Of a stretch of DNA of 64,000 bases, positions 1,883 through 62,550 are shown piece by piece. The notes below the pieces were generated by a model that saw only the letters and a list, made by a program, of their open reading frames with translations, was not told where the DNA came from and ran no database searches. The position numbers were made by a program, and so were the translations under genes. The first letter of the stretch is position 1. Each line of letters starts with the position of its first letter. This stretch comes from a virus (Duplodnaviria; Caudoviricetes), in IMG/VR virus record IMGVR_UViG_3300029288_000159, positions 7,498 through 71,497 of that record; one strand, given 5' to 3'.

Positions 1883-2119
1883 GCGAGATCTATACTGAGG
1901 CAAGTCGACGCATCGCTACTGGGTCATCGATTTCGACGACTCCCATCAATGCGACGCTTGCAGCAAGACGCGCGGTGCTCGCCAAACGCCTACAGCAACT
2001 GAAAGCCGACCAGGACCACTGGAATCGGATGCACCCCGACGAGGAGCCCATATCTCTCGACTTCGACCTCACGGCCGACGTAGAGGCGGCGCTCGCAGCC
2101 AAGAGGGGGACGCCATGAG
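1857..2119 (+). repeat. 27-bp direct repeats (1857-1883, 2093-2119) flanking one small gene
   Basis: TCGCAGCCAAGAGGGGGACGCCATGAG occurs twice, each copy containing RBS, stop and start. Confidence 0.9.
1879..2118 (+). CDS. Small protein starting with a 20-aa copy of a major capsid segment
   Basis: IYTEASRRIATGSSISTTPI is identical to capsid codons 13857-13916. Confidence 0.7.
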   Translation: MSEIYTEASRRIATGSSISTTPINATLAARRAVLAKRLQQLKADQDHWNRMHPDEEPISLDFDLTADVEAALAAKRGTP

Positions 2120-3014
2120 TGATAGCAAACTAGTGAAGTTCGAGTTCCACGGCGATGAGCTTTGGGCAACCTGGCGGAACGGGATTCTCTGGATCCCCGT
2201 GAAGCGCGTCTGCGAGTGCCTCGGCATCGACGAGAGCAGCCAAAGGCAGCGTCTTTTGCGGTCCAAATGGGCAGTTACGGCCATGGTAACCGTGACTGGA
2301 CTAGATGGAAAGTCGTACTCGATGTTCTGCATCCACATCGACTCCCTGCCGATGTGGCTCACCACGATTCAAGCTTCGCTCGTCAAGGGGAAGCGTGTTC
2401 GAGAGAAGCTGGAACTCTATCAATGCCAGGCGGCCAAGGCACTACGCGACCATTTCATCGGTTCGCAGCAGACCATCAATCCGCAGATGCTTCGAAGCAT
2501 CATCTCGGAGGAGTTGCTCCCGTACAAGCAGGAGAACGCCGATCTCAAGGCCATCGTTTATGACTCGCGCTCCGAAAACATGGAATTGAAGACGACCGTT
2601 CAAGAGTTGAGGACGATCGTCCAAGAGATTCGCGACGGGCAAAATGCAACGATTACCCCGACAGAACTCAAGCTACTTAGCGAAAAACTGGCCGACATCG
2701 CGAGACTGCGGAAGGAGCATGGGAAAGAGGGAGCTCTCTACATCACAGTCATGACTCAGATGTTTCGCTGGGGCGTGCTCAAACAATGCAAGTTGGCCAA
2801 TATCCCATCTACTGCAGTCCCATATGCCTTCAATTGGCTCGACGGGCAACTCGACGAGTTCAAGCGCGAAGAGCGTGACAAGGCCAAACGTGAACGGGCC
2901 GAGAAGAAAGCAAAGGTCGCTCAAGAGGAGGCCAAGGCGGCCAAAGAGAAAGAGTGTCAACAGAAGCTCGACTTCACCGCTTCGGCAGAGGCCGCTGCGA
3001 AGCGGAGCAACTAG
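2115..3014 (+). CDS. Phage antirepressor (P22 Ant N-terminal-like) with coiled-coil C-terminus
   Basis: FEFHGDEL...IPVKRVCECLGIDESSQRQRL...LPMWL...KLELYQ pattern. Confidence 0.75.
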   Translation: MSDSKLVKFEFHGDELWATWRNGILWIPVKRVCECLGIDESSQRQRLLRSKWAVTAMVTVTGLDGKSYSMFCIHIDSLPMWLTTIQASLVKGKRVREKLELYQCQAAKALRDHFIGSQQTINPQMLRSIISEELLPYKQENADLKAIVYDSRSENMELKTTVQELRTIVQEIRDGQNATITPTELKLLSEKLADIARLRKEHGKEGALYITVMTQMFRWGVLKQCKLANIPSTAVPYAFNWLDGQLDEFKREERDKAKRERAEKKAKVAQEEAKAAKEKECQQKLDFTASAEAAAKRSN

Positions 3015-22723: not shown

Positions 22724-23662
22724 ATGGCGAAAGCGCGAGACCTCGACATCCTGCTCCAATTTCTCCCTGCCTCATGGCGCGGAGTGCCCTTCCCCGTTGC
22801 CGATTTCGACATCTCATGGAGCCACGATCATGCCGTCCACAAGGTATACAAGCAGCCCGTCTCCAACATCGAAACTACCGGACGTAATAGTCGAGAATTC
22901 GGATTCGACATTCCCTTTCGAAACGGAGTCATTCCTGGACCCACCGAAGATGACCTGCGAGGACGGATCCTCTACCCGGACGTATATCTGGCTTTCGTCG
23001 ACGCTTTCAACGAAGACACCGCAGGAGACTTGATCCACCCTTCAGTGGGAAAAGTAAACTGCAAGCCGGGGCAGATAAGAGTTATCGGGAGCGCGCAATC
23101 ACGCGATGGCGTGATGGTGCATGCGACGTTCACCGAGTCGGATGATACCCCAGAAGGGAATGCCCCTCCTCCGGATTCTCCTGCCCCAATGACTGGAATC
23201 GCATCGGAAGCCGAGAATCTCGATACGATGCTTCTCGTCCTCAAGCCTCCTCCCCTAGACGATGACACCGGGGAACCGTTTACATCATTCGCCCAATTCG
23301 GCGCTCTCCTGCGAGCTCCGTTCGACACACTCTCGCTTCTCTCGACTCGAGTTGGCAACGCCATCGCAGCGTTTGGGGATCAGCTCGACCGCCTGCAGGA
23401 GTCAGTCTCCCGGCTCAACGACGTGAGCATGTGGCCCATCCTAGACTCGATTGGAAAACTGCGAGACAGTCTCATCGATCTCACTGTCGCAGGTCAGAAA
23501 GAGGCACTCAAACTCCACAAGTACGTGACCCCGCACGATATGACAGTGAGTGACATCTCGAACTTCCTGCAGGTCGATTTCGAATCGCTCATCTTGGCGA
23601 ACCCATTTCTGTGTGACAGTCCCATCGTGGTGGAGAACACCACTGTCATCTACCAGCGATGA
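22724..23662 (+). CDS. DNA circularization N-terminal domain protein (Mu gpN-like) with C-terminal LysM-like segment
   Basis: LPASWRGVPF...IETTGR...LIHPSVG motifs. Confidence 0.82.
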   Translation: MAKARDLDILLQFLPASWRGVPFPVADFDISWSHDHAVHKVYKQPVSNIETTGRNSREFGFDIPFRNGVIPGPTEDDLRGRILYPDVYLAFVDAFNEDTAGDLIHPSVGKVNCKPGQIRVIGSAQSRDGVMVHATFTESDDTPEGNAPPPDSPAPMTGIASEAENLDTMLLVLKPPPLDDDTGEPFTSFAQFGALLRAPFDTLSLLSTRVGNAIAAFGDQLDRLQESVSRLNDVSMWPILDSIGKLRDSLIDLTVAGQKEALKLHKYVTPHDMTVSDISNFLQVDFESLILANPFLCDSPIVVENTTVIYQR

Positions 23663-24885
23663 CCATCGGTGACGAATCAGTTGTCCTTGAGGTGGGCGGC
23701 AAGAAGATTGCTCGGTGGGAGAACTACTCGTTCAACAACCATTTCCTCATCCCGGCCGATGGGTTCAGCTTCTCGATCGGCGGTGATTCGCTCACGCCAG
23801 ATCTCATCAAGATGTTGAAGCCTGGCTTGGCCGTGAAGCTTACGATCGATGGCAACGTACAAGCATCCGGCTTCATCGACCGCATTGTGCCGCGCACCAA
23901 TCGCAGTGGAGGAGGGACGATTACAGTCGAGGGCCGAGACAAGTTCGGCAGCGTGCTCGACTCTCAGATCGATCCACGCAAAAAGTGGAAGGATACGACA
24001 CTCGAGAAATTCATCATCGACACGCTAGGCCCATTCGGATTCACCACGTTTTTCGTGGACAACGAAGCAAACACGAATGTGGCGGCTGGCAAGGCCGTAA
24101 AGAGAAACAAGAAGCCAAAGAAGCTGAGTGAGTACAAGAGCTCATACGCGAAGCCTCAAAACAACGAATGCGTGTTCTCGTTCGTCTCTCGCATCACACA
24201 GCATTTGGGTCTCTGGATCTGGCCGACGGTCGATGGTGACGGAGTAGTCGTAGGCGTTCCGGACTTCGCACAGAAGGCTCGCTATCGCATCGTGATGCGC
24301 ATGCGCGGGGGCTCGCAGAATACGGCCCTCGAAGGCGGGGTAACGCGCGACTACACCGGTCAGCCGAGCTTCATCGTGGGGCGCGGGCGCATCCCGGGAA
24401 AGACCTTCGAGCGCACGAAGACGTCGGTCACACTCACGAGCAATTTGGCTGCATCGGGCACGCAAACGCCAGCACTCAAAGCGGTGGGAGAGAGCCCGTT
24501 TATCGATCATCTCGGATACCAAATAGAGAAAGAGACCGTCGTCGTCCCAGCGAAACCAGTCGAATGGGCGAATGAATTCGCTTCGACGGTGGCGAGGCCC
24601 ATCTTTCTCACGGATGACCACTCAAAAGACATCGAAGAGCTCAAGAAGTTCGTCCAACGCGAGATGTCGCTCCGCACTCGACACGCGGTGACCGGGCATT
24701 ACATTGTGGCGGGGCACACGCAGAATGACGTTCCGTGGACCATCGATAGCATCTGCGATGTCAGCGACGAGGTCTCCGATTGGGAGCGCCCCATGTGGAT
24801 CTTGAGCCGTACATTTCGAAAAGATCGTTCGTCCGGGACGACGACTGAATTGGAGCTTTTGCCCCTCGATTCTCTCGTTTTCTGA
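23659..24885 (+). CDS. Baseplate hub (Mu gpP/gp44-like)
   Basis: WENYS...IPADGFSF...VEGRDK...LDSQ motifs. Confidence 0.82.
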   Translation: MTIGDESVVLEVGGKKIARWENYSFNNHFLIPADGFSFSIGGDSLTPDLIKMLKPGLAVKLTIDGNVQASGFIDRIVPRTNRSGGGTITVEGRDKFGSVLDSQIDPRKKWKDTTLEKFIIDTLGPFGFTTFFVDNEANTNVAAGKAVKRNKKPKKLSEYKSSYAKPQNNECVFSFVSRITQHLGLWIWPTVDGDGVVVGVPDFAQKARYRIVMRMRGGSQNTALEGGVTRDYTGQPSFIVGRGRIPGKTFERTKTSVTLTSNLAASGTQTPALKAVGESPFIDHLGYQIEKETVVVPAKPVEWANEFASTVARPIFLTDDHSKDIEELKKFVQREMSLRTRHAVTGHYIVAGHTQNDVPWTIDSICDVSDEVSDWERPMWILSRTFRKDRSSGTTTELELLPLDSLVF

Positions 24886-24899
24886 TACAGGATGCAGGC

Positions 24900-25142
24900 A
24901 TGTTCAATATCACACATTATGTTCTGTTTCAGAATGGCGATGCGTGGATAGCTCAGTTGCTCGAAAAAGATCTCAATGGGCAAGGATCGACGAAAGAAGA
25001 AGCATTGCATAGCCTCAAGAGGACCATTTGGGGACAAATGGAAGTGGATAAGCACTTCGGGCATATTCTGTTGGGCGATTTAGGCCCAGCCCCATCAATA
25101 TACTGGAGCATGGAACGATGCCAGTTGAAGCTTTTCGTGTAG
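24900..25142 (+). CDS. HicB-like fold protein without a HicA partner
   Basis: WIAQLLEKDLNGQGSTKEEALHSL matches the HicB N-terminal pattern; locally AT-richer. Confidence 0.55.
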   Translation: MFNITHYVLFQNGDAWIAQLLEKDLNGQGSTKEEALHSLKRTIWGQMEVDKHFGHILLGDLGPAPSIYWSMERCQLKLFV

Positions 25143-25771
25143 AAGAATGTCTCTCATGCACGCGCGATGCGACGACAGGAGCCATTCTGCTCACCATCGG
25201 CGATGTGCTGCATGAACGGGTAGAGGATTCAGACGTCCCCCTGTTCCAGACTCCGGGGTTCGTGAGCCGCCCTGCGGTGCCCGACCCGAAGGCTTCCGGA
25301 GCCGAATTCGTGGTGCTTCGAAGTGTCGACTCCGATGTCGCAATCGCTGGCCGGGACCTTCGGGGTCATGCGATTGCTGGCACTTTGCTCGATGGAGAGA
25401 GCTGCGTCTACGCGCCAGCGGGGCAAGGCCGCATCCTTCTGAAGGCTGATGGCTCGGTCACCATGTACACGACCTCCGATAACACGGAGTCTGGTGACTC
25501 GGTGTTCTGTAGCATCTCCCCGACCGGCATCAAAATAGGCGGCCCGTGGGGCGTACTCTCGATGGACTCAGACGGCGTACGCGTTCTCTCGTCGAAGGGC
25601 TCCGCGCTCACCCTCGCCACTGATGCATCGCTTGCCGGCCAGAGCGCATCCCTCAATGGTGCCGGGAATGCCTCAGTGGCTGCCGGCGTCTTGAATCCCG
25701 CACAAGGTATCGCCTATTCATCTGCAGGACCGGTCAATCTCGTATCGCTGACCTGCACTGTGTCGCCGTGA
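25118..25771 (+). CDS. Baseplate spike (Mu gp45-like)
   Basis: PLFQTPGFVSRP...GESCVY...ILLKADG motifs. Confidence 0.78.
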   Translation: MPVEAFRVEECLSCTRDATTGAILLTIGDVLHERVEDSDVPLFQTPGFVSRPAVPDPKASGAEFVVLRSVDSDVAIAGRDLRGHAIAGTLLDGESCVYAPAGQGRILLKADGSVTMYTTSDNTESGDSVFCSISPTGIKIGGPWGVLSMDSDGVRVLSSKGSALTLATDASLAGQSASLNGAGNASVAAGVLNPAQGIAYSSAGPVNLVSLTCTVSP

Positions 25772-26079
25772 GTCTCTGCAATTTCTCGCTCTTTACGATC
25801 ATCATCCCGCCGATCCCTCTGCCGGCGATACCATCGCTCCCAAGCTTTTCGCTCTCGTTTACGATCCCAGGGCTGAACCTCCCGTACACGCTCTCGCTCG
25901 CCATCCCGGCAATCCCGTTGCCTGCCATTCCTAGTCTACCATCGTTCTCGCTCTCGTTCACGATCCCCGGATTGAACTTGCCCTATACGCTGAGTCTGAC
26001 GATCCCGGCGATCCCGCTCCCCGCCATCCCGAGCCTGCCAAGCTTCACTCTGCCGTCGCTCTACTGCCCGCTCGACTGA
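25768..26079 (+). CDS. Pro/Leu/Ser-rich protein made of 33-aa tandem repeats
   Basis: About 2.5 copies of IPAIPLPAIPSLPSFSLSFTIPGLNLPYTLSL, with synonymous divergence between copies. Confidence 0.75.
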   Translation: MSLCNFSLFTIIIPPIPLPAIPSLPSFSLSFTIPGLNLPYTLSLAIPAIPLPAIPSLPSFSLSFTIPGLNLPYTLSLTIPAIPLPAIPSLPSFTLPSLYCPLD

Positions 26080-26467
26080 CCGTCACGACGTCGTTGGGTT
26101 TCACGTGCGGGAATGGCGAGGCCAGGACCACGTGCACGGACCCATCGATCCCATGATGCGCTACGATGGTGCTCGTGTAGATGACGAGGTCGATCGAATC
26201 GAACATCGATAACTGCGTCACTCCGTCGACGAACATGTCGTACGGCGGGTAGTGACGCTCTCCACTCGACACGACGAAAGCCGACGGTGTCACGACATTC
26301 TCCCAATCTACTACGAGGGCGGTCTGACCCTCAATCGTCGATGTACTGATGGGGTCTTGTGGCGCCCCCGAGCAGCCATTCACCAATAAGAGTCCCAGAA
26401 ACAATAGCGCAATGTATTGCGCCTGCGCTCTGCGGTCGTGTTCCTGCCAATATTCGACGTTGTTCAT
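26045..26467 (-). CDS. Antisense-oriented putative lipoprotein carrying a paralog of a baseplate-J domain
   Basis: Hydrophobic signal ending LVNG-C; mature part aligns to baseplate J at ~28090-28380. Confidence 0.75.
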   Translation of the reverse strand: MNNVEYWQEHDRRAQAQYIALLFLGLLLVNGCSGAPQDPISTSTIEGQTALVVDWENVVTPSAFVVSSGERHYPPYDMFVDGVTQLSMFDSIDLVIYTSTIVAHHGIDGSVHVVLASPFPHVKPNDVVTVSRAGSRATAE

Positions 26468-26546
26468 GATTGACCTCCGTGAACAAGCATATCGACTTCA
26501 TTGTATCCGTCCAGAGCATCTGTAATCTGCCAACGATATCAAGCAC

Positions 26547-27002
26547 ATGTCCTACCTCCCGATAGTCGGCACAGGGCCCTTTGGTGCGGGGACTCCCATC
26601 CCACCATCCCCTCCACCTGCTCCCGTCCTTGGGTCGTCCCGAGAGATTGGGACAGGGCCGGAGAACCGTGGCCAATACGTGATAGATGCGACTAGTGGCC
26701 ACCCTATCTACGATACGGATGTGCGACAGTTGGCGATCATCGCTTTGACAACATCACTCAATTCGAGTTGTGTTTTGGGTTTGGGCCGCGATCCGGAACC
26801 GCCCACGATCGACGACAATTTCCCCGAGCAGAAGCGGGCTCAGATCGATGCGGCGTTGGCTGATCTGGTGAAGGCCAAGATGCTTTCCGTCTCATCGATG
26901 CAGATCATCGAGAGCGTGGGGACGGGGCTCGGGCGGACCATCACGCTATTGCATCTGAAGGATCTGTCGAACAATCAGCCCTTCAGCCTCAATCTCTCAT
27001 AG
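26547..27002 (+). CDS. Baseplate wedge protein (Mu gp46/gp25-like)
   Basis: Position before baseplate J; QLAIIAL...IDAALADLV pattern. Confidence 0.6.
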   Translation: MSYLPIVGTGPFGAGTPIPPSPPPAPVLGSSREIGTGPENRGQYVIDATSGHPIYDTDVRQLAIIALTTSLNSSCVLGLGRDPEPPTIDDNFPEQKRAQIDAALADLVKAKMLSVSSMQIIESVGTGLGRTITLLHLKDLSNNQPFSLNLS

Positions 27003-27084
27003 TCCAAATAACTGAATGCCCCCGGACCATCCGGAGGCATTCAGCAGCTCGCAGCCTGAATCGGAGGTCGTCTCCGAGTAGAGG

Positions 27085-28725
27085 TTGCAGATCGCAGACT
27101 ACACGCTGCAGGTGCCCATGTCAACGACGTCGCCCGCCACACTCACAGTCCTGTCCCCGGACGAAATCAGTAATTCTTACCTACGAGTAGTTCGGGCTGA
27201 GCTCATTTCTCGCGGCGTTGCGAATCCAAATGTCACACCGGGCAGCGACTATGCGGTGAGAGCCGCCGCTCTGGCTCAGCAGATCTCTCCGGCGATGGCG
27301 AATGCAATCATCGCCGCGGACATCAACATGCCGGACATGTGCACAGCCGAACGACTCGTGCGCTGGCTCGCGATCTACGGATTGTCATACCGGGATGCGC
27401 AAGGCTCCGTCGGCAATATCGTGCACAGCGCGTCGTCCACAGGATACGTCCCGCATGGCGCCCAGCTCGTCAATTCCTCTGGTCTATTTTATGAGGTGGA
27501 CGTCGGAGGAAACTACCCGAACGGTGCGTCGATTCCCATCCGCGCTCTATCCACCGGCAAGTCCACGAACATGTTGGCCGGGGAGACGCTGCAATGGCTG
27601 GTGCCTCCGCCATACGCTAACAGCAAAGTGCTCGTGGGTGTAGGCGGGCTGATCGATGGCGTCGACGCAGACACGGACACGATCGCGCGTAATCGGTTGC
27701 TGCAGCATCTTCGAACGCCGACGGGCGGCGGGAACTGGGCACAGACGATCGAATGGGCGGTCGAGGCGAGCGCCTCCGTCGTTGCCGCATTCGATTACCC
27801 GGCTCTTCTCGGTCCCTCGTCATATGCCATCTGGCCGCTCGGAGCGCTCATCTACGACACGACAACGGGGTTCTCTCGGCAACTCTCCGATGCTACGCGT
27901 GCGATCGTGAAGGCTGCCGTAGTAGCGCAGAAGCCGCCCGAAACGTATTGCTACATGATGACGACGCTAGGTTCGTATGCGGCTGACATCGACACGGACG
28001 TGGTGATTGCCCTCTCTCTTCCCGCTGCAATCTCGGTCGGCGGGGAAGGCGGTGGATGGACGGATGCGACGCCATGGCCCGTCCTCGAGGGAGGCATCGA
28101 ACGCATCTGGGTTGACGGCGACAACACCATTACGCCAACACAATTCGTTTTGCGGAGTGAGAGCACATCCTATCCACGTGCTTCCACAATCATCAATGGC
28201 GTAACACAGATTGCCGTATTCGACCCCGTGAGTTGGTGGAATGGCGGGGCGACGGATCATGGCCCCGCCATCCGCACGAGCACCATTGTAAGCCATGCGG
28301 GGATCGATGGGAGTGTGGTCTGCATGATCGACCCTGCCCATCCGTTCCCGAACCTCAAGGCGAACGACATGGTCTTCCCAAACTGCGAAAACGCTGAGGT
28401 CTACGCACAGGCATGGCTTGTCGCCATGGCCGACATGGGACCGGGGGAGATGACCACGAACGCCGATGTGCTCGTCTATGCATATCGACATCCAGCACCC
28501 GGACAGGGACATCCATACTCTCTCACTACACGTCAGACGAAAGCGATCATTGACTCGTCGGATGAAGTGCTCGATGCGGCCTACATTCTAGCAGGAGCCG
28601 TGAGTCCTTCCGATGACACCATTTTTACTGAGTTCACAACACCTCCGGTTGGTGGTCCATCGCTCGACTACGCACCGGCAACGCTCGTCCCCAGGACATT
28701 CGCCTTCTTCCCAATGAGTGCATAA
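27085..28725 (+). CDS. Baseplate J-like protein (Mu gp47-like) with an inserted domain
   Basis: PGSDYAVRA...GGLIDGVDADTD...RNRLL...PTGGGN motifs. Confidence 0.85.
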   Translation: MQIADYTLQVPMSTTSPATLTVLSPDEISNSYLRVVRAELISRGVANPNVTPGSDYAVRAAALAQQISPAMANAIIAADINMPDMCTAERLVRWLAIYGLSYRDAQGSVGNIVHSASSTGYVPHGAQLVNSSGLFYEVDVGGNYPNGASIPIRALSTGKSTNMLAGETLQWLVPPPYANSKVLVGVGGLIDGVDADTDTIARNRLLQHLRTPTGGGNWAQTIEWAVEASASVVAAFDYPALLGPSSYAIWPLGALIYDTTTGFSRQLSDATRAIVKAAVVAQKPPETYCYMMTTLGSYAADIDTDVVIALSLPAAISVGGEGGGWTDATPWPVLEGGIERIWVDGDNTITPTQFVLRSESTSYPRASTIINGVTQIAVFDPVSWWNGGATDHGPAIRTSTIVSHAGIDGSVVCMIDPAHPFPNLKANDMVFPNCENAEVYAQAWLVAMADMGPGEMTTNADVLVYAYRHPAPGQGHPYSLTTRQTKAIIDSSDEVLDAAYILAGAVSPSDDTIFTEFTTPPVGGPSLDYAPATLVPRTFAFFPMSA

Positions 28726-29225
28726 TGACTCTACCTGCTATTGATTCTGCGGCTGCGTGGGGTGCTGACACATGGACTGACTTCGAGCCCATCGTCGACC
28801 CGACTACCGAGCTGCCGGCGTCCGTCGCCAAGACTATCGCCGCTGATACGGCTGCCATGACTCACACCGCAGTGAGGGCATGGGTGCGCTTCCTATGCGC
28901 TACGTACACAAGCGGCACCGTGGCATGCACGGTAGTCGATCACGATTCCGTGTGGGGCAGCGCCACGGCTCCGACCGTAGACGAAGTGGCAGCAGGTCAA
29001 TACACGATCACCTGGCCTGCATCCGTCACGGATGAACTCGGCGCGATACATACACTGGCCATCCGTGCCCCTCTCCAGCCTGCTCTATCGGGGAGTGCCA
29101 CATTTGGCATCGGATACGCAATGGTCTTTTCATTCACGGCGAACGTCATCAATCTGCGAACGTACAACACTTCGTTCACGGAAGCAGATATGGCCGCCGA
29201 TTATTGCACGGTCGCTTGGTACTGA
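28725..29225 (+). CDS. Hypothetical tail/baseplate protein
   Basis: Operon packing. Confidence 0.5.
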   Translation: MTLPAIDSAAAWGADTWTDFEPIVDPTTELPASVAKTIAADTAAMTHTAVRAWVRFLCATYTSGTVACTVVDHDSVWGSATAPTVDEVAAGQYTITWPASVTDELGAIHTLAIRAPLQPALSGSATFGIGYAMVFSFTANVINLRTYNTSFTEADMAADYCTVAWY

Positions 29226-34730: not shown

Positions 34731-35234
34731 ATGAATTCTCAAGTGTTGTTCGTACTTCTCATGACGATAGTGACGAGTATTGGGACGTTCCTCATTCGGG
34801 GACTCAAGGGTGAATTTGCCGTTTTCCCCGACTGGCCAGCACCCGTCCGGCTCGCACTCGCTACCTTCCTGGCTGTCGTCGTTGGTGCAGCAACGAACGT
34901 GGAGACAGGTGCAGCGTTCCTCGCATCGTTTCTCTCTGGACTCGTTTCGGCTCTGCCAACCATCTTGCTAGAGCTCCTCGATCTGCTCAAAAACGTGAAG
35001 ACGAAGGCAAACGTTGCAGCTGTTTCGGCAGCTGCAAAGATGACCATGTTGCTTGTAGTCATCATGATGGCTACTGCTTGCTCCGCTGTCTGTCCAATCA
35101 TCCACGCTGCGGATCAAGTGTGTCCGTTCATCATCGTGGAACTCGAGAACGGCCAGAAGGTGCAGATCCCTAAGGGGCCTGTGGTGCAGCAGGCTCGCGC
35201 GATCGCAGCAGAAAAGAAGGACGGTGTGAAGTGA
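34731..35234 (+). CDS. Holin-like multi-TM protein
   Basis: Three to four hydrophobic segments, AGGAG RBS, upstream of the endolysin. Confidence 0.5.
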   Translation: MNSQVLFVLLMTIVTSIGTFLIRGLKGEFAVFPDWPAPVRLALATFLAVVVGAATNVETGAAFLASFLSGLVSALPTILLELLDLLKNVKTKANVAAVSAAAKMTMLLVVIMMATACSAVCPIIHAADQVCPFIIVELENGQKVQIPKGPVVQQARAIAAEKKDGVK

Positions 35235-36169
35235 GCGAGTCCGTCATCGGAGAGGTCGTCTTCGATGGGAAGGTTCGACCTCTCAAACACCGCCCCTCTC
35301 CGCCAGGATCACGAGGCCCGGTCGAGCTGAGACACATGCCTCGCATCCGACGCGCGAGAGTCTCAGCCGGACCCGTGCTCCACAACAACGATGACCTAAT
35401 CATCGAAGTGCTCGACCAGGGGCAGTTAGGCTCCTGCGAGCTCAACGGTTGGGACAACGGTCTGCGCTCCGCACAAACCCTCCAACTCGCCACGGCCATG
35501 GCGACACAACTGGGCATCTTGTTCGCTGACGCTCTGGTCCGAGTCAAAGATGCGCCGCCGGAGCTTGCCGCCCGCCTATTCATGTATTTCTGTGCCCAGG
35601 CGGTGGGCGGATATCTAGGTCAGGGCGATACCGGCACGACGTCGGCAGACGTTGCGGAAGCGTTGGCGTCGGTTGGTTTCTGTCGAGAGAGCCTCGACCC
35701 CTATCGAGACGATCCGAACGCAATCGATCCAAACGACCGCATGGTTGCTCTGCAGGCGCACGCATACGACCAGCGATTCCACGGCATTGCTCGAATCGAT
35801 GAGGACGGCATGTCGCCGTATGACCGTGCGTCGGTAATGGATCAATCACTAGCTGGGCGCTACGTCGTAATCTACGCCACACCATGGGACATCACGGCAT
35901 CGGAAATTCAACCCGGTCAGATCTGGCGTGGCTGTCTCGGCCAAATCCTCGGCGGCCATTGCGTTGATGTCGTGGCGGTTGGACCTGCAAACATGCTGAT
36001 GCCCGGAGACACAACTTCTACCGAGGAGTGCTATCTCGTGCTCAACAGTTGGGGTACGAGTTTCTGCCGCAATGGCCGATTCCTAATGGCCAAAGAGGCT
36101 CTGCGCTGGCAGTACGACGGCTACATCGTCGGCAACGTTCCACAATTCAGCGATCAGGTGGCCGCATGA
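35231..36169 (+). CDS. Papain-like (C1) cysteine peptidase
   Basis: DQGQLGSC (catalytic Cys), GGHCV (His) and LNSWG (Asn) motifs. Confidence 0.88.
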   Translation: MSESVIGEVVFDGKVRPLKHRPSPPGSRGPVELRHMPRIRRARVSAGPVLHNNDDLIIEVLDQGQLGSCELNGWDNGLRSAQTLQLATAMATQLGILFADALVRVKDAPPELAARLFMYFCAQAVGGYLGQGDTGTTSADVAEALASVGFCRESLDPYRDDPNAIDPNDRMVALQAHAYDQRFHGIARIDEDGMSPYDRASVMDQSLAGRYVVIYATPWDITASEIQPGQIWRGCLGQILGGHCVDVVAVGPANMLMPGDTTSTEECYLVLNSWGTSFCRNGRFLMAKEALRWQYDGYIVGNVPQFSDQVAA

Positions 36170-36576
36170 ACCGACAATTCATCTTCATCTTGAGCGCGGT
36201 GGGCCTCTTCTCGCTGCTGTCGATGGCGCCCGCATGTCCGCCTCAACCTGTGCCGCCTACGCCGGGTTCTGGCGGCTCGCCTGGCACAGGTGGCTCACCC
36301 AATGCCGCCGGCTCGCAGACGGACGATGGCGGTGCTTTTCGGTGCCAGCAACCGGGTACTTTTTGCTGCGCGGAGTGCGCCGTCCTCGTGGCACACGAGT
36401 GCCACGAGGAGGTCGACCGAACACCCAACGAGGCAGGCTGCGAGGAACGATGCAACAGCGCCGCGTCGCTCGTTTCTGCGCTGCATTGGCCCGACGTGAC
36501 AGCGTGCACCGCGCTGTCATGCATCCGTGAGCCGAAGGCCGGCAAGCGAGGAATCGCTTGCGCAGGAGGCAAATAG
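36166..36576 (+). CDS. Secreted/lipoprotein-like Cys-rich protein with a Pro/Gly linker
   Basis: N-terminal signal ending MAPAC, PG/S linker, many Cys. Confidence 0.55.
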   Translation: MNRQFIFILSAVGLFSLLSMAPACPPQPVPPTPGSGGSPGTGGSPNAAGSQTDDGGAFRCQQPGTFCCAECAVLVAHECHEEVDRTPNEAGCEERCNSAASLVSALHWPDVTACTALSCIREPKAGKRGIACAGGK

Positions 36577-36634
36577 TAGGTGATGGTCGAGGGGAGGGCA
36601 GTAGGGCTCTCCCTTCTCCAAGCGCCGGAGCAAA

Positions 36635-37276
36635 ATGACAAAGAGGATTCTCGCCATGGCGATTGGTATTTCTGCTCTATTATTCGCGAAGGCCGCAAAG
36701 CTCGAGACGCTGCACGAGGGGCGTCGAGCTCACGTGTATTTGGACTCGAAGGGAATCAAGACAGTAGGGATCGGCCTCAACCTCGAACGAGGAGATGCTC
36801 GTTCCGCACTGGATGCAGTTGGAGCAGACTACGACGCTATTGCGAATGGACATACTACGCTAAGCAACGAGCAAATCGACGAGTTGTTTCGTCGTGACCT
36901 CACCATGGCAATCGCATGGACGAAGAAGGTGGTCCCCGAGTTCGACAATCTGCCAGAAGTGATTCAGCTTGTCCTTATCGACATGACATTCAACATGGGA
37001 TGGGTAGCACTGCGTGGATTCCCGAGAATGTTGGCCGCCATGCGATCCCAGAATTGGGAGCAAATGATCGCGGAGATGTACGATTCAAAGTGGTTCCGCG
37101 ACGTCCCCACTCGCGTCAACGACGACGTGCGATTGCTACGCGCCGGTCTCAAGTTGCCTAGTCCAGTGCTAGCTCTAGATGATGACGAACGAGAGCGCAT
37201 TATGGCATTGGTTGCGCTCACTACGGAGCAGATTCTAGACGAGCACTTAGAACCTCATGCTTCGGAAACTGCCTGA
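36635..37276 (+). CDS. GH24 lysozyme endolysin, probable SAR type
   Basis: E-x8-D-x5-T triad (HEGRRAHVYLDSKGIKT) right after a weakly hydrophobic Ala/Gly-rich N-terminal helix. Confidence 0.88.
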   Translation: MTKRILAMAIGISALLFAKAAKLETLHEGRRAHVYLDSKGIKTVGIGLNLERGDARSALDAVGADYDAIANGHTTLSNEQIDELFRRDLTMAIAWTKKVVPEFDNLPEVIQLVLIDMTFNMGWVALRGFPRMLAAMRSQNWEQMIAEMYDSKWFRDVPTRVNDDVRLLRAGLKLPSPVLALDDDERERIMALVALTTEQILDEHLEPHASETA

Positions 37277-48223: not shown

Positions 48224-48353
48224 CGATGGTTCGCGCCAACTCCTTCGTGAATCGTTCGATCTCCACTATCGCTACCGTGGCTCTGCGATAGGCTGCCACG
48301 AGTTCATGCGCTCTGTTTACTGAGTTGCTCAGATCACTTATGGCTTGGTTCAT
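48165..48353 (-). CDS. Small coiled-coil protein
   Basis: ATGA overlap with the nuclease stop. Confidence 0.5.
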   Translation of the reverse strand: MNQAISDLSNSVNRAHELVAAYRRATVAIVEIERFTKELARTIDDIHEIETRPLDSEEEIPF

Positions 48354-49996
48354 TGCTTTCTCCGTCGCTCTTCGTAGCGGACCTGCGTGATCGTCTCCGT
48401 CGCACCGACCTCGCGCAACGACGTCATGACTCGCTCGAGTGTGTCTGCCACCGAAAGTCCTCGGGCTCGAGCCGCATCCTTGATCGCCTCCTTGCTTGTG
48501 CTCGGCCGTACGGCTTCGGGGAACTCGAACATGCGAACGAGACCATCAGCGTTGAGGCGAATCCGCTCAACAGGAACTTCGTGGCGACCCCACACGCCCG
48601 TGTCGGTACGGATGCCTCCGTTCGCGTCGGCCCATGTCTGTAGAGCTCTCTGGACGTCATCTACAGCCATCCTCACACGTTGGAGACGAGACAACATCCA
48701 CGCTGCATGCCTCTCGTCCTGGATGAGTTCTGGGAGCGCTACAACCGGGTAGTCCATCTCCGGGTTCAGTGATGGGTCGACTTGTTCGATGCTCTCTCTG
48801 GTTTCGGGGCAGAAAGCGCGAGCGGGGCAGTATCTGCACCACGCTCCCGGATTGGGTGCCAGCTTTTCATCCATGGCTCTCTGGATGTCTGCTAGCGTCG
48901 CTCGCACTTCGAGGAAGTCAGCCGGGCCGAGTACTGCAGTCTCGGCCCGCACCATGTCTTCGTCCACGAACGCAAGCATGATCCGAATCGTCTGCGCACC
49001 TATCCATGCAGCTACAGCCGTCCCCAGAAACCGCATCTGCATGTTGTGCTCGATCGCCTCTGTGCCTTCGACCTGTCCAGTTTTCCAATCGATGACAGTG
49101 GGGCATGAGTCCCCGAGCACCAGATCTGCTGCGCCAGACCATTCGCCCGGCTCAAGGAATTCGAACACCTTGCGTGGGTCTTTGCCCGGGTGTAGCCGTG
49201 CACTGTGAGTTCTCGGATCGTAGATGACTGGATTCTCCACGCTCAGGATGGGTTGCGACAGGAACGGCGCCATCTCGCGTTCCCACGCGGCGATCCAGTT
49301 ACGGACTGTCTTCATGCTCTCCTTGAGAGAGATGCTCATGTCCTTTGCGATCTGATCAGGCCGCCGCGCCATACTGTTCGCTCGGTCGGCAGCGTAGGCG
49401 TGGAAGAGGCGTCCCATGCTCGCCTCCTCCGATGCCTCGCTGTCGTCCGCGGGCCAGACCGCATCTGGAGACCAGAATGCCCAGACGCAATGAACTGCGA
49501 TGTGGAGCCGGGAAGCTGTCGGGCGATGTTGGCGTAGTTCAGTCGATGTCGTCGATGTCATCGTAGGCTCATGCCAGGACACAGATATCGACATGCGCCG
49601 CAAAGTTACTGCTGCGCCCAGTACTATTGCTGTATTATCAAGTACGAGATCTCCGGGTACATCCAGTTGCATCAACAGTGATCCGTCTGCGGAGAATGTG
49701 CGACCAAACGAGGCTTTCCCGGTCCCACATGCAATTGCAGAAATCGGATTCGGAATGCTGATGATGCGCTGCTTGACAACGCCTTCTGTCGCTCGCTCGA
49801 TAACGCTGTTTGCCACTTGCGAGAATGCGGGTACTTCGAAGTGCAATTCCGCAAGCAGTCTGTTCTCAATGAGAATGGAGTCAACGTTAGGCATGTGGCC
49901 GGAATAGATCCGTATCAATCCAGCGTCATGCCTTGCGCCGAGTGCAGTCAGGTTTCTGACTTGTTTACACGCTGCAAGCCGTTCGGCATCTATCAT
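48350..49996 (-). CDS. PD-(D/E)XK (RecE/Cas4-like) exonuclease with an N-terminal virion-type domain
   Basis: PTASRL..., GAADLV...VIDWKTG, PGAWCRYCPAR..CP; adjacent to recT; N-terminal ~140 aa align to ORF 37542-37940. Confidence 0.8.
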   Translation of the reverse strand: MIDAERLAACKQVRNLTALGARHDAGLIRIYSGHMPNVDSILIENRLLAELHFEVPAFSQVANSVIERATEGVVKQRIISIPNPISAIACGTGKASFGRTFSADGSLLMQLDVPGDLVLDNTAIVLGAAVTLRRMSISVSWHEPTMTSTTSTELRQHRPTASRLHIAVHCVWAFWSPDAVWPADDSEASEEASMGRLFHAYAADRANSMARRPDQIAKDMSISLKESMKTVRNWIAAWEREMAPFLSQPILSVENPVIYDPRTHSARLHPGKDPRKVFEFLEPGEWSGAADLVLGDSCPTVIDWKTGQVEGTEAIEHNMQMRFLGTAVAAWIGAQTIRIMLAFVDEDMVRAETAVLGPADFLEVRATLADIQRAMDEKLAPNPGAWCRYCPARAFCPETRESIEQVDPSLNPEMDYPVVALPELIQDERHAAWMLSRLQRVRMAVDDVQRALQTWADANGGIRTDTGVWGRHEVPVERIRLNADGLVRMFEFPEAVRPSTSKEAIKDAARARGLSVADTLERVMTSLREVGATETITQVRYEERRRKQ

Positions 49997-51033
49997 TCGA
50001 ATCCCTCCCGGATTGGATCATGATCCGCCCCGTCCACCACCTCATTCTCTGTCGGCACGCGTGGGCGTTCTGTCGAGTAATGGACCGGCTTGAACGAGCC
50101 GCCCCGTTGCTCCTGCACGTCCTGCACGACGCCGTCCTGATCGACGGTCACCGTCTCGGGTTGCGGGTCCTCCGTACCCAGCATTTCCGCCGCGCTGGGC
50201 TGCGCAGGCGGGAGCGCCGCGGCCTGGAGGGCCTCGGATAACGGGACGAGTCCTCGGTCGTTCTGGCGGGTCGCCATGTTGCCCTGCGCCTCGTCCGAGT
50301 GGGAGAGCGCCATGGCCACCGATTCAGCCACCTCCGGCTCGACAGGGAGATACTTCACCAGTCTTCTCACAGCGGTTTTCCTGCTCATCTCGTCGGGCCA
50401 GTCGGCCCATGGCCCCGATTGCGCCGCAGAGCACGCCCGGATGGCCTCGAGGTCGCCACGCGTGCAGATCTCGACCTGCTTGCACCCATCCTTGAAGGTG
50501 GCGATCGCGTAGGAGGCGATGATTTGTCCTCTGTCTTCCATGCCCAGATACGGCACATGCTCAATTTTGGAGTCAGTCCCATAACGGACGTCGAACACAG
50601 GATCCTTCTCACGTACGACGTGAGCCTCGATACTTGCGATCAACTTGGAGCGTCGCGCGATGTCGAGCAGCCCGCGATATCCAGGGTCGAAGGAGCATTC
50701 CCATCGGTGCGGCGTGACCTTCTTGTTCTGTCGCGGGACGAGATATCCGCGACCGTTCACGCCACCCGGAGTGATGCCTAGCGCCGCCGCGTCCATGAGC
50801 GCCTTCAGCACGCTCTCGGGCGTGCACTCACCAAGGCGGGGTTGACGACTCGCCGCCAGGCACGCCAGGCGGATCATCTCCACTGGATTCACCTGCTTCG
50901 AGGCCACATCGTTCAACCGGTCGATGTTCGCCATCAACCAATCTTTCAACGTTGCCGGCCGGGTTTGCTGTTTCCGCTGACTCGGTGGCGTTGGCGATGG
51001 GGGATTCGGAGAACTCTGACGTTGCTGTGCCAT
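49993..51033 (-). CDS. recT: RecT-family single-strand annealing recombinase
   Basis: L.ECTPESVLKALMDAAALGITP...GYLVP...GYRGLLDIARRS...WPDEMSRKTAVRRLVKYLP. Confidence 0.92.
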   Translation of the reverse strand: MAQQRQSSPNPPSPTPPSQRKQQTRPATLKDWLMANIDRLNDVASKQVNPVEMIRLACLAASRQPRLGECTPESVLKALMDAAALGITPGGVNGRGYLVPRQNKKVTPHRWECSFDPGYRGLLDIARRSKLIASIEAHVVREKDPVFDVRYGTDSKIEHVPYLGMEDRGQIIASYAIATFKDGCKQVEICTRGDLEAIRACSAAQSGPWADWPDEMSRKTAVRRLVKYLPVEPEVAESVAMALSHSDEAQGNMATRQNDRGLVPLSEALQAAALPPAQPSAAEMLGTEDPQPETVTVDQDGVVQDVQEQRGGSFKPVHYSTERPRVPTENEVVDGADHDPIREGFE

Positions 51034-60949: not shown

Positions 60950-61129
60950 GTGAGCAAAAAAGCTGGACCCATACGAACCACGCAGAAGAATCTTCGGCTC
61001 GCACCAGATGAGATGCGCAGAGCCGAGAAGGTTATGAACCATTACGGATTGGACCTTCAGGCTCTTCTTCGAATGCTCGTTAAGCAGGAGCATGATAGGC
61101 TTTTCTCACATGGCAAGGAGGCAAGGTGA
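60950..61129 (+). CDS. RelB/DinJ-like ribbon-helix-helix protein (59 aa), absent from the ORF track
   Basis: Manual translation MSKKAGPIRTTQKNLRLAPDEMRRAEKVMNHYGLDLQALLRMLVKQEHDRLFSHGKEAR; GGGAGA RBS; GTGA overlap with the Cas12f start. Confidence 0.75.
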   Translation: MSKKAGPIRTTQKNLRLAPDEMRRAEKVMNHYGLDLQALLRMLVKQEHDRLFSHGKEAR

Positions 61130-62550
61130 AGGTGAAGAAGAAGAAGAAGAAGGAGGAGGAAAAGGAGAAGGAGACGGGCACAGTTGTTCGTGTGCGGGCT
61201 GTGCGAGTGGAGATTGCAAAGCCTCTCGACATCCAGTGGCGAGAGCTGGACGATCTGTTGCGAGATAGACGAGCCGTAATGCATCGGCTGCTCAATGCAG
61301 GCGTGCTTCACATTGCTTCTCAGCGCTGGGCCGGGAATGAGAAACCGCGCGCGCTTGAAGCCATCAAGGCAGAATTGTCGTCTTGGCAAACGTGGTGCGC
61401 TGAGATGGGCGCCAAGACGAAGGATGAGAAAGAACGCATCAGACACGAACGTAGAGCGACGATGACATTGGCGTCGTCAATCACAGATGCACTGCAACAG
61501 CGGTGCGTTGACGCAGATCAACGGTGGCGCAAAAACAAGGGCAACGCCAGATTGCCTACCGCAAAACGTGGGGCTCCAATCTTCATCCGTGATGGTGGTT
61601 GGACGCTTGAGTCGGACAAGAACGGTTGGATCCTGTCGATGAGACTTGAGGGTGTCACCCCAACGAATCATCGTCCAGGCAAGGTCCGCGTCGCTTTGCG
61701 ACCGTCATCCGGAAAGCATCATGGCATTCTGCAACAGATGGTGAAAGGCTCAGTCAAGATAGGCAATTGCCAAGTTGTACTCGATGAGTCGACTGGCAAA
61801 TGGTACGCCATCCTAGCGTTCACTGAGGAGTTGAATCGAGCGGCCCCACCACGAGACGGTACCAAGACACTTATCGTCCATAGAGGGCAACGCAACTTTA
61901 TGTATGCCCTGTGCACCGACGGGCGAACGCGTATATTGCGCGGCAACAAGTTTGCGGCTCAACGATTGCATCTGAAGAGGAGAGCGGAGGCTTTCAAGCG
62001 TGTGTCAGCGTTCGAGCGTGGTGCCGGAGCCAAGGGGCATGGCACCAGACGACGGTACGAAACTCATGATGCTTTGGATCGGAAGCTCAAACGAGTCGTT
62101 CATACATATTGTCAGACTTCGGCTGCCTGGGTGTTCAAGGCCGCCAAGGATCTTGGCTGTGGACGCATCCTCATCGAGGACTATGGCGGTATAGAACAGA
62201 GCGACGAACGAGCTGAGCGCAGATTCTTGGATCACTTCCCGTACTACCAACTGGGGACGGCAATCAAGTGGGTCTGCAAGCGAGAGCAACTGGAGCTGTT
62301 GGAAGGTCCGGCAGCATTCATCTCGCAAACGTGTCCACGATGCAAGCATCAGGATGCTCGTCAACACAACACCCGAACCGGAGTGTTCCATTGCATCAAC
62401 CCAGACTGCGGATTCGACCGACCAGCAGACTGGGTAGCAGCATTCAATCAAGGTATCGCTTTTGGCATTGACATGAGTGAGATAAAGAAGATACTTGCTG
62501 CTCAAGAGAGGGTAGCGGCCGAAATCAAAAAGAAGGCAAAGGCGGCATGA
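61126..62550 (+). CDS. cas12f: Cas12f1-like type V effector with altered RuvC (H252-E351-D435); probably nuclease-deficient
   Basis: N-terminal RVEIAKPLDIQWRELDDLLR, GAKGHG, GCGRILIEDY, RFLDHFPYYQL, SQTCPRC...CINPDC...ADWVAAFN follow the AsCas12f1 layout as recalled; RuvC-I reads LIVHRG instead of xGIDLG; adjacent to the array. Confidence 0.85.
   Translation: MKVKKKKKKEEEKEKETGTVVRVRAVRVEIAKPLDIQWRELDDLLRDRRAVMHRLLNAGVLHIASQRWAGNEKPRALEAIKAELSSWQTWCAEMGAKTKDEKERIRHERRATMTLASSITDALQQRCVDADQRWRKNKGNARLPTAKRGAPIFIRDGGWTLESDKNGWILSMRLEGVTPTNHRPGKVRVALRPSSGKHHGILQQMVKGSVKIGNCQVVLDESTGKWYAILAFTEELNRAAPPRDGTKTLIVHRGQRNFMYALCTDGRTRILRGNKFAAQRLHLKRRAEAFKRVSAFERGAGAKGHGTRRRYETHDALDRKLKRVVHTYCQTSAAWVFKAAKDLGCGRILIEDYGGIEQSDERAERRFLDHFPYYQLGTAIKWVCKREQLELLEGPAAFISQTCPRCKHQDARQHNTRTGVFHCINPDCGFDRPADWVAAFNQGIAFGIDMSEIKKILAAQERVAAEIKKKAKAA

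What the first reader, a model, noticed from the sequence alone, without database searches (positions are those of the whole stretch)
26045..26467. Antisense lipoprotein that is a membrane-anchored copy of a baseplate-J domain
Seen: the mature part aligns with baseplate J at ~28090-28380, for example VDWENVVTPSAFV/VDGDNTITPTQFV, DGVTQLSMFD/NGVTQIAVFD, TSTIVAHHGIDGSV/TSTIVSHAGIDGSV and PFPHVKPNDVV/PFPNLKANDMV (roughly 40% identity by eye). It has a signal peptide ending in Cys and is the only convincing reverse-strand gene in the tail operon. Known: moron lipoproteins often mediate superinfection exclusion. Inference: exclusion by baseplate mimicry, either occupying the receptor or jamming incoming baseplates.
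Basis: partly seen in the sequence, partly recalled or inferred. Interest (0 to 1): 0.85.

Follow-up and report, generated by a model that had tools for sequence, protein, structure and literature searches.

The report
Phage lipoprotein born from baseplate domain
An uncultured phage carries a small backwards-facing gene, wedged into its tail genes, whose exported (probably lipid-anchored) product is an old, fast-diverged copy of one beta-barrel domain of the phage's own baseplate protein J; it most likely acts at the host envelope like the known exclusion lipoproteins of T5 and T1, but this is untested.

Summary
ORF 26045-26467(-) encodes 140 aa. Residues 19-128 align with baseplate J residues 308-430 (window 28006-28374) at 37% identity, E 4e-19.

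It is a real gene:
- It fills the only gap in the forward baseplate genes.
- It has a GGAGG ribosome-binding site 6 nt before the ATG.
- Its codon-position GC matches the phage's genes.
- Its frame is intact although synonymous sites are saturated.

The copied part is a six-stranded beta-barrel (J 322-423) that Mu gp47 appears to lack. In a domain tree the copy is sister to this phage's own J (100/99), on a very long branch. No other homologue turned up among 5.8 and 1.84 billion proteins.

The N-terminus is export-like (RR, 12 hydrophobic residues, V-N-G-C). The lipobox is non-canonical, with Asn at -2.

Three related contig lineages carry unrelated reverse-strand lipoproteins with canonical lipoboxes in the same slot.

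Best reading (0.5): an Llp/Cor-type envelope accessory lipoprotein built on a recruited J scaffold. Literal baseplate mimicry is unsupported and topologically awkward (about 0.12). The host is unknown, and no integrase, resolvase or rve transposase family was found in the record.

The parts
26045..26467 (-). Gene for the 140-aa exported protein (P0001), stop codon included
   Evidence: ORF, translation. GC by codon position is 0.59/0.42/0.71, like the phage's genes, and it is the only frame of six with a positive codon score. The frame is intact although dS against J is saturated.
26474..26478 (-). Shine-Dalgarno GGAGG, 6 nt upstream of the ATG
   Evidence: Read directly from the sequence.
26372..26467 (-). 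Signal or lipoprotein-type N-terminus, M1-C32: polar n-region with R12-R13, hydrophobic Y18-V29, then V-N-G-C
   Evidence: Sequence. Residues 19-40 align in register with J 308-329 (score 17, shuffle p 0.00085, best register in all of J). The lipobox is non-canonical at -2 (Asn).
26321..26371 (-). Probable flexible tether after Cys32 (S33 to about A49)
   Evidence: AF2 pLDDT is 51-60 for the first 20 residues of the mature protein.
26072..26320 (-). Six-stranded beta-barrel domain (residues about 50-132), paralogue of the J barrel
   Evidence: AF2 model: mean pLDDT 81.5, 90-95 across the barrel. BLASTP. In the domain tree it is sister to the phage's own J, 100/99.
27118..28725 (+). Baseplate J / Mu gp47-type wedge protein (535 aa from M12; P0003)
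   Evidence: Pfam Baseplate_J 1.2e-14. PDB Mu gp47 9ki1_H: profile E 8e-25; VIA Z 14.4, 338 aligned, rmsd 16.1. 27 relatives found.
28006..28374 (+). Donor segment in J: last strand of the preceding domain, the Gly-rich loop and the extra beta-barrel (P0002 residues 308-430)
   Evidence: tblastn coordinates. The barrel lies at J-model residues 322-423 and matches generic barrels on its own.
25768..26079 (+). Upstream neighbour: conserved Pro-rich tandem-repeat small protein ending in CPLD. It overlaps the 3' end of the lipoprotein gene by 35 nt, convergently.
   Evidence: Homologous ORFs ending in CPLD, CPLE or CPRE are seen in L003, L007, L010, L017 and L018.
26547..27002 (+). Downstream (divergent) neighbour: 151-aa baseplate protein in the Mu gp46 position. 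A 79-nt divergent intergenic region separates it from the lipoprotein start.
   Evidence: The conserved 152-aa homologue in L003 occupies the same position. No Pfam or PHROG hit.

Best explanation
The ORF is a functional accessory ('moron'-type) gene of a roughly 71-kb uncultured myovirus-like phage.

Origin. A segment of the phage's own baseplate wedge gene J was duplicated and inverted into the gap between the Pro-rich 'CPLD' gene and the gp46-position gene. The segment comprised one beta-strand, a Gly-rich loop and an extra six-stranded beta-barrel. The copy gained a new start codon and a polar, Arg-containing n-region. The former beta-strand and loop appear to have become the hydrophobic core and the Cys-containing cleavage site of an export signal.

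Product. It is exported and most likely lipid-anchored at Cys32. A tether of about 15 residues holds the beta-barrel in the cell envelope.

Proposed function (inferred, not shown). It binds a host envelope component used during infection and so blocks further infection, or inactivation of progeny on cell debris. T5 Llp, T1-type Cor and Rtp45 do this; the llp gene of T5 lies beside its receptor-binding protein gene. In this reading the J barrel served as a stable scaffold that then evolved a new specificity. It is not a faithful mimic of the baseplate.
For: Shown here:
- Homology to J: 37% over 123 aa, E 4e-19. J is the only other match in the record.
- Real gene: it lies in a gap between forward genes, has GGAGG 6 nt before the ATG, gene-like GC by codon position and the only positive codon-score frame.
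- Old duplication kept open: third-position identity is 0.34, dS about 3 (saturated), dN 0.61, with no stop or frameshift in 140 codons.
- Derived from this phage's own J: sister to it at 100/99 support. 22 residues are shared with the own J but differ from the consensus of the other J proteins.
- Fast divergence of the copy: end branch 1.8 against 0.02 for J.
- Independent fold: the AF2 barrel has pLDDT 90-95, preceded by a low-confidence tether.
- The signal peptide aligns in register with a J strand and loop, p about 1e-3.
- Context: related contig lineages L003/L004, L007 and L010 hold reverse-strand genes at the same slot. Their N-termini end in canonical lipoboxes (ALSC, LSSC, LAAC) and their mature parts are unrelated to P0001; the L003 and L007 proteins are 39% identical to each other.

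From the literature: the exclusion lipoprotein Llp is encoded adjacent to the receptor-binding protein pb5 (PMC9586334), and Rtp45 excludes by acting on LptDE (PMC12685063).
Against: - The lipobox is non-canonical (Asn at -2), and no SignalP or LipoP run was possible. A signal-peptidase-I substrate or an N-terminal membrane anchor remains possible.
- No promoter-like site was found upstream by the sigma-70 scan, although the host's promoter type is unknown.
- The host is unknown. Only a 35%-identical J relative sits on a Polyangiaceae MAG contig.
- There is no sequence or family link to Llp, Cor, Ltp or any defence or exclusion family in Pfam, PHROGs or NCBIfam. PADLOC was not searched.
- The gene is a singleton in all databases searched, so there is no orthologue-based test of selection.
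- Eight other related loci have no gene in this slot, so the function is dispensable.
Confidence: 0.5

Rival explanations
1. True baseplate mimicry. The anchored barrel keeps the binding specificity of the J barrel. It either occupies the host-surface ligand that J touches or captures a virion partner of J on incoming particles.
For: - The most conserved hairpin of the close J clade (TSTIV.H.GIDGSV) is retained almost intact in the copy.
- The barrel is an extra domain relative to Mu gp47, and such additions are often peripheral (inference).
- Similar barrels occur in tail-tip proteins, tailspikes and glycosidases: Z 6-8.3, a range the tool itself calls common.
Against: - The copy's branch is 1.8 changes per site, and the family's nearly invariant GPGGGW..PWP motif is lost.
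- Wedge proteins of contractile tails remain outside the outer membrane, whereas a Lol-sorted lipoprotein would normally face the periplasm (established knowledge).
- The lipoproteins in the same slot of relatives resemble no virion protein in the part of their phage that was fetched.
- Nothing shows that the J barrel binds a receptor.
Confidence: 0.12
2. A functional exported protein with a different envelope role, unrelated to exclusion. Examples: modulating lysis timing, altering surface polysaccharide or vesicle release, or countering an envelope-associated host defence.
For: - The evidence for a real gene and for export is the same.
- No homology ties it to any exclusion family.
- The phage encodes other exported proteins, such as a signal-bearing Cys-rich protein and a lysozyme with a hydrophobic N-terminus at 36.0-37.3 kb.
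Against: - It is located in the baseplate module, not in the lysis region at about 35-37 kb.
- Rapid turnover of unrelated lipoproteins at one slot beside host-recognition genes is the pattern seen for exclusion genes such as llp, which lies next to pb5 (PMC9586334).
Confidence: 0.25
3. A non-functional relic of an inverted partial duplication of J that happens to remain an open frame.
For: - It is a singleton with no orthologues.
- No promoter or terminator consensus was found in the right places.
- Many antisense ORFs in this GC-rich genome have mildly positive codon scores.
Against: - Synonymous sites are saturated, yet 140 codons stay open and in frame with the J homology. At roughly 3.5% stops per random codon (my estimate), the chance is about 0.7%.
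- There is a strong SD at the ideal spacing.
- The N-terminus has the full n/h/Cys layout of an export signal.
- Relatives have bona fide lipoprotein genes in the same place and orientation.
Confidence: 0.05
4. An invertible or shufflon-type alternative segment of J (as in Mu Gin or P1 Cin tail-fibre switching), not an independent gene.
For: It is an inverted homologue of part of a nearby tail gene.
Against: - The ORF has its own ATG, SD and export signal.
- No flanking inverted-repeat crossover sites exist. The only long inverted match (49 nt, 78%) is the conserved hairpin-coding stretch itself.
- No resolvase/invertase or integrase family is present in the record.
- The segment is internal to J, not C-terminal.
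Confidence: 0.01

Closest known systems
Phage T5 Llp (lytic conversion lipoprotein) and the Cor lipoproteins of T1/phi80-type phages
   Same: - A small phage-encoded lipoprotein-type product.
- Encoded next to host-recognition or tail genes (llp lies adjacent to pb5; PMC9586334).
- Inferred to act at the envelope.
   Different: - No sequence or family similarity.
- The host and receptor are unknown.
- The lipobox here is non-canonical.
- The mature domain here is demonstrably derived from the phage's own baseplate protein, which the papers I read do not report for Llp or Cor.
- No phenotype has been tested.
Rtp45, superinfection-exclusion lipoprotein of phage Rtp acting on LptDE (PMC12685063)
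   Same: A small phage exclusion protein that changes the conformation of the outer-membrane receptor so that the receptor-binding protein cannot bind. This is the type of mechanism I favour here.
   Different: - No homology.
- Rtp is a siphophage of E. coli with a known receptor.
- Here neither a receptor nor binding is known.
Ltp of Streptococcus thermophilus phage TP-J34 (PMC3952083)
   Same: A phage lipoprotein exposed on the cell surface that excludes superinfecting phages.
   Different: - Ltp belongs to a temperate phage of a Gram-positive host. From memory, it is encoded in the lysogeny module and blocks DNA injection.
- No similarity here.
- No integrase, resolvase or rve transposase family was found in this record.
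Baseplate wedge protein Mu gp47 / P2 gpJ / T4 gp6 family (Pfam Baseplate_J; PDB 9ki1)
   Same: The donor gene belongs to this family, and the lipoprotein's mature domain is a paralogue of one of its domains.
   Different: - P0001 does not contain the Pfam Baseplate_J region, which maps to J residues 88-253.
- It matches only a lineage-specific extra barrel (J 322-423) for which Mu gp47 (356-360 aa) has no room.
- It is exported rather than assembled into virions (inference).

Membership tests
Bacterial lipoproteins (signal peptidase II substrates) | Positively charged n-region followed by a hydrophobic h-region of about 7-22 residues | tested here: met
   R12-R13, then Y18-V29 without any charged residue (pattern scan).
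Bacterial lipoproteins (signal peptidase II substrates) | Lipobox [LVI][ASTVI][GAS]-C, with the Cys within about the first 35 residues | tested here: inconclusive
   The sequence is V-N-G-C32. Positions -3, -1 and +1 fit, but Asn at -2 lies outside the classical set. The relatives' slot proteins have canonical ALSC, LSSC and LAAC. No LipoP or SignalP was available.
Bacterial lipoproteins (signal peptidase II substrates) | Lipid modification and globomycin-sensitive cleavage | not testable with these tools
   Needs expression and labelling.
Pfam Baseplate_J (PF04865) | A match to the family profile above the gathering score | tested here: not met
   P0001 has no Baseplate_J hit at E 0.1 or better. 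In J the profile covers residues 88-253, outside the duplicated segment.
gp47/J clade of this phage group (27 relatives) | Homology to the C-terminal extra beta-barrel and its flanking strand | tested here: met
   E 4e-19 against the own J. Scores of 34-39 bits against the J of relatives. Sister to the own J at 100/99.
gp47/J clade of this phage group (27 relatives) | The nearly invariant GPGGGW..PWP loop preceding the barrel | tested here: not met
   It is replaced by NGCSGAPQDPISTS in P0001.
Llp / Cor / Rtp45 / Ltp exclusion lipoproteins | Sequence or profile similarity to a described family | tested here: not met
   No hit in Pfam, PHROGs or NCBIfam. Only itself was found in 5.8 and 1.84 billion proteins.
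Llp / Cor / Rtp45 / Ltp exclusion lipoproteins | Encoded beside the host-recognition (tail or receptor-binding protein) genes as a separately expressed small gene | tested here: met
   It is antisense, with its own SD, between baseplate genes. The slot is shared with the lipoprotein genes of relatives.
Llp / Cor / Rtp45 / Ltp exclusion lipoproteins | Blocks adsorption or DNA entry of the same or related phages by binding the receptor | not testable with these tools

The most novel reading that the evidence does not exclude
The anchored barrel still recognises what the J barrel recognises, whether a host-surface ligand or a virion partner. The phage would then protect its infected cell with a membrane-tethered copy of part of its own baseplate. 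That would be an exclusion factor made by self-mimicry. Its signal peptide would have been created de novo from a beta-strand and a Gly loop of the structural protein.
Probability: 0.12. Interest if true: 0.8.

Novelty: new variant of a known kind. Interest (0 to 1): 0.5.

Why it matters
If the proposed function holds, this is a traceable case of how phages make new exclusion or envelope genes. An internal piece of a virion protein is copied, flipped and given an export signal, apparently recycled from the structural protein's own strand and loop. The piece then evolves rapidly.

The work also identifies a hot spot, between the Pro-rich 'CPLD' gene and the gp46-position gene, in an uncultured family of Mu-like baseplate modules. 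Unrelated lipoproteins have been swapped in and out of it. That gives a small panel of candidate receptor-masking proteins to test once a host is known.

It remains a single-genome, function-untested case, so its immediate weight is moderate.

Tried and rejected
Searches that found nothing useful:
- Homologue searches with P0001 returned only itself. The ESM Atlas gave no usable feature hit.
- Pfam, PHROGs and NCBIfam gave nothing for P0001 or for the relatives' slot lipoproteins.
- The family of the 262-aa lipoprotein from a relative (P0030) has only one further member.
- Fold searches of the mature model returned only generic six-stranded barrels. Foldseek PDB had no hit at E 0.001 or better. 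VIA-wide gave a best Z of 8.3 (rmsd 3.1, 85 aligned) to a GH110 galactosidase, then translation factors, lambda gpJ and T5 pb9 at Z 6.5-7.7. BFVD gave nothing at E 0.001 or better. No function can be drawn from these.

Tools that could not be used:
- With the single J protein, viral contigs gave nothing.
- With the four-sequence alignment, I got one Polyangiaceae MAG contig and one IMG/VR contig. Both are 35% identical and both lack the slot gene.
- tblastn against cultured phages gave no close relative, so no host.

Ideas rejected:
- Invertible-segment idea: rejected (no recombinase).
- Recent gene conversion between J and the copy: rejected. The 49-nt, 78% inverted match is about what 13/16 identical residues predict, and overall third positions are random.
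- A 'reverse gene' called in L012, and the 86-aa one on the P0005 contig, are the antisense reading of the Pro-rich repeat and not lipoproteins.
- The 63-aa reverse ORF 36295-36486 with an FLAAC motif lies inside a forward signal-peptide gene and was not accepted.

Full report
**Setting.** The window is bases 7498-71497 of a 71,497-base IMG/VR virus record judged 97% complete.
- Forward-strand genes from about 9 to 42.5 kb encode a contractile-tail module with a Mu-like baseplate.
- These include a GpP-like hub protein (23659-24885), a spike-position protein (25118-25771), a Pro-rich repeat protein (25768-26079) and a 151-aa protein in the gp46 position (26547-27002).
- They continue with baseplate J/gp47 (27118-28725), a 166-aa protein, a Mu gp48-like protein and long fibre-like genes.
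- No integrase, resolvase or rve transposase family is present in the record.
- The host is unknown. No cultured phage is close. The only genome-borne relative of J, at 35% identity, is on a contig of a Polyangiaceae MAG.

**The observation.**
- ORF 26045-26467(-) exists and encodes 140 aa.
- BLASTP against J gives 37% identity over 123 columns, E 4e-19.
- Searching the whole record finds only itself and J.
- The J segment is window 28006-28374.

The similarity is therefore real and far beyond chance.

**Is it a gene?**
- The ORF occupies the only sizeable gap in the forward baseplate genes.
- It has a GGAGG box 6 nt before its ATG.
- Its GC by codon position is 0.59/0.42/0.71, like the phage's long genes, and it is the only one of the six frames there with a positive codon score. 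This score alone is weak evidence, because many antisense ORFs in this genome also score mildly positive.
- The stronger argument is evolutionary. Across 110 aligned codons, third-position identity to J is 0.34 and dS is about 3, which is saturated. dN is 0.61, and the frame has no stop or shift.

A neutral relic that old would not stay open for 140 codons.

**Where it came from.**
- J has 27 database relatives at 31-55% identity. All of them carry the segment that P0001 matches.
- A maximum-likelihood tree of that segment places P0001 as sister to this phage's own J, with 100/99 support. P0001's end branch is 1.8 changes per site against 0.02 for J.
- P0001 shares 22 residues with its own J that differ from the consensus of the other J proteins.

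The duplication therefore happened in this phage's lineage, after it split from the nearest known relatives, and the copy then diverged very fast.

- The AF2 model of J (pLDDT 87) aligns with Mu gp47 (9ki1_H: Z 14.4, rmsd 16.1, 338 of 356 residues). The profile match covers only J 67-242.
- J residues 322-423 form a separate six-stranded barrel that matches generic barrels on its own.
- J is about 180 residues longer than Mu gp47. I therefore infer, without proof, that the barrel is an extra, lineage-specific domain.
- The mature part of P0001 is predicted to fold alone into the same barrel (pLDDT 90-95), behind a tether of about 15-20 low-confidence residues.

**The N-terminus.**
- P0001 starts with 17 polar residues that include R12-R13. 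There follow a 12-residue uncharged hydrophobic run and then V-N-G-C32.
- This is the layout of a lipoprotein signal, except that Asn at -2 is outside the classical lipobox. I rate lipidation at about 0.6-0.7 and export in some form at about 0.85.
- The homology to J continues, in register, into this signal. Residues 19-40 against J 308-329 score 17, with shuffle p 0.00085, and this is the best register anywhere in J.
- The J counterpart is the last beta-strand of the preceding domain plus the GPGGGW loop that is nearly invariant in the family.

The simplest reading is that the hydrophobic strand became the h-region and the Gly loop became the cleavage site. Only the first 18 residues are new. 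This is an inference with modest statistical support.

**Context in relatives.** I fetched the baseplate neighbourhood of eleven other J-bearing lineages.
- Three of them have a reverse-strand gene at exactly this slot, after the Pro-rich 'CPLD' gene and before the gp46-position gene or J. They are L003/L004 (J 54-55% identical overall), L007 (J 54-55% identical overall) and L010 (43%).
- Each of these N-termini ends in a canonical lipobox: ALSC, LSSC and LAAC.
- The mature parts are a Cys-rich protein of about 250 aa in L003 and L007, which are 39% identical to each other, and an unrelated 112-aa protein in L010.
- None resembles P0001 or any other protein of its own locus.
- Eight other lineages have no gene there.

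The slot is therefore a hot spot for dispensable, rapidly replaced, antisense lipoprotein genes. This is independent support that P0001 is an exported lipoprotein-class accessory protein.

**Mechanism.**
- Small lipoproteins such as T5 Llp, the Cor proteins and Rtp45 exclude superinfecting phages by binding the outer-membrane receptor and changing its shape. The T5 llp gene lies beside the receptor-binding protein gene (PMC9586334, PMC12685063). Ltp does a comparable job on Gram-positive cells (PMC3952083).
- The position, orientation, size, export signal and turnover of the slot genes fit that class best. I give this reading 0.5.
- I consider literal mimicry of the baseplate unlikely (about 0.12). 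The copy is extremely diverged and has lost the family's conserved loop. The relatives' slot proteins mimic nothing in their loci. Wedge proteins of an incoming contractile tail stay outside the cell, whereas a conventional lipoprotein faces the periplasm.
- Retention of the TSTIV.H.GIDGSV hairpin keeps the mimicry idea alive.
- Other envelope roles get about 0.25, a dead relic about 0.05, and an invertible J segment about 0.01. For the last, there are no crossover repeats and no invertase.

**Limits.**
- No signal-peptide predictor was available and no host is known.
- There are no orthologues and no expression data.
- No promoter consensus was found.

**Verdict.** The lipoprotein and exclusion class is plausible by analogy and context, and the mimicry mechanism is not supported. 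It is a new variant of a known kind (phage accessory envelope lipoproteins), with an unusually clear birth history. Interest 0.5.

Noticed in passing
window 25768-26079 (+); also L003 2-283, L007 45-365, L010 5249-5530, L017 4283-4510, L018 4243-4506: A small Pro/Leu/Ser-rich protein built from 99-nt tandem repeats and ending in CPLD (CPLE or CPRE in some). It is conserved between the spike-position gene and the gp46-position gene across this phage group and has no family hit. Gene callers sometimes call its antisense strand instead (L012 3091-3459; the 86-aa gene on the P0005 contig). It may be a spike-tip or membrane-interacting component.
   Followed up: partly
window 35231-37276 (+): A likely lysis region. 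It holds a weak papain-like protease match (35231-36169, E 0.011, below the cut-off). Next is a protein with an internal start (MNRQ...), a signal peptide and a Cys-rich mature part inside ORF 36028-36576. Last is a Phage_lysozyme with a hydrophobic N-terminus (36635-37276, E 7.8e-7). No spanin was identified.
   Followed up: partly
window 27012-27044: A near-perfect 15-nt-arm hairpin (93% complementary, 3-nt loop) directly after the stop of the gp46-position gene and before the J start. It may be an RNA structure or attenuator inside the late operon.
   Followed up: no
L007 366-1138: In this relative the reverse-strand lipoprotein gene abuts J directly. The 152-aa gp46-position gene seen in the window and in L003 is not between them.
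   Followed up: no
whole record (G000): The 97%-complete record has no tyrosine integrase, serine recombinase or rve transposase family. It does carry a P22 antirepressor-like N-terminal domain (2115-3014), a RecT plus PD-(D/E)XK nuclease pair (48350-51033) and a Cas12f/TnpB-like gene (61126-62550). The lifestyle is unclear.
   Followed up: partly
window 28725-29225 (+) and relatives: A protein of about 165 aa lies between J and the gp48-like gene. It is conserved in every relative examined and is followed by a second ORF of similar size (168 aa; relatedness not tested) in L003. Mu has no gene at this position (from memory). It is a candidate partner of the extra J barrel.
   Followed up: no
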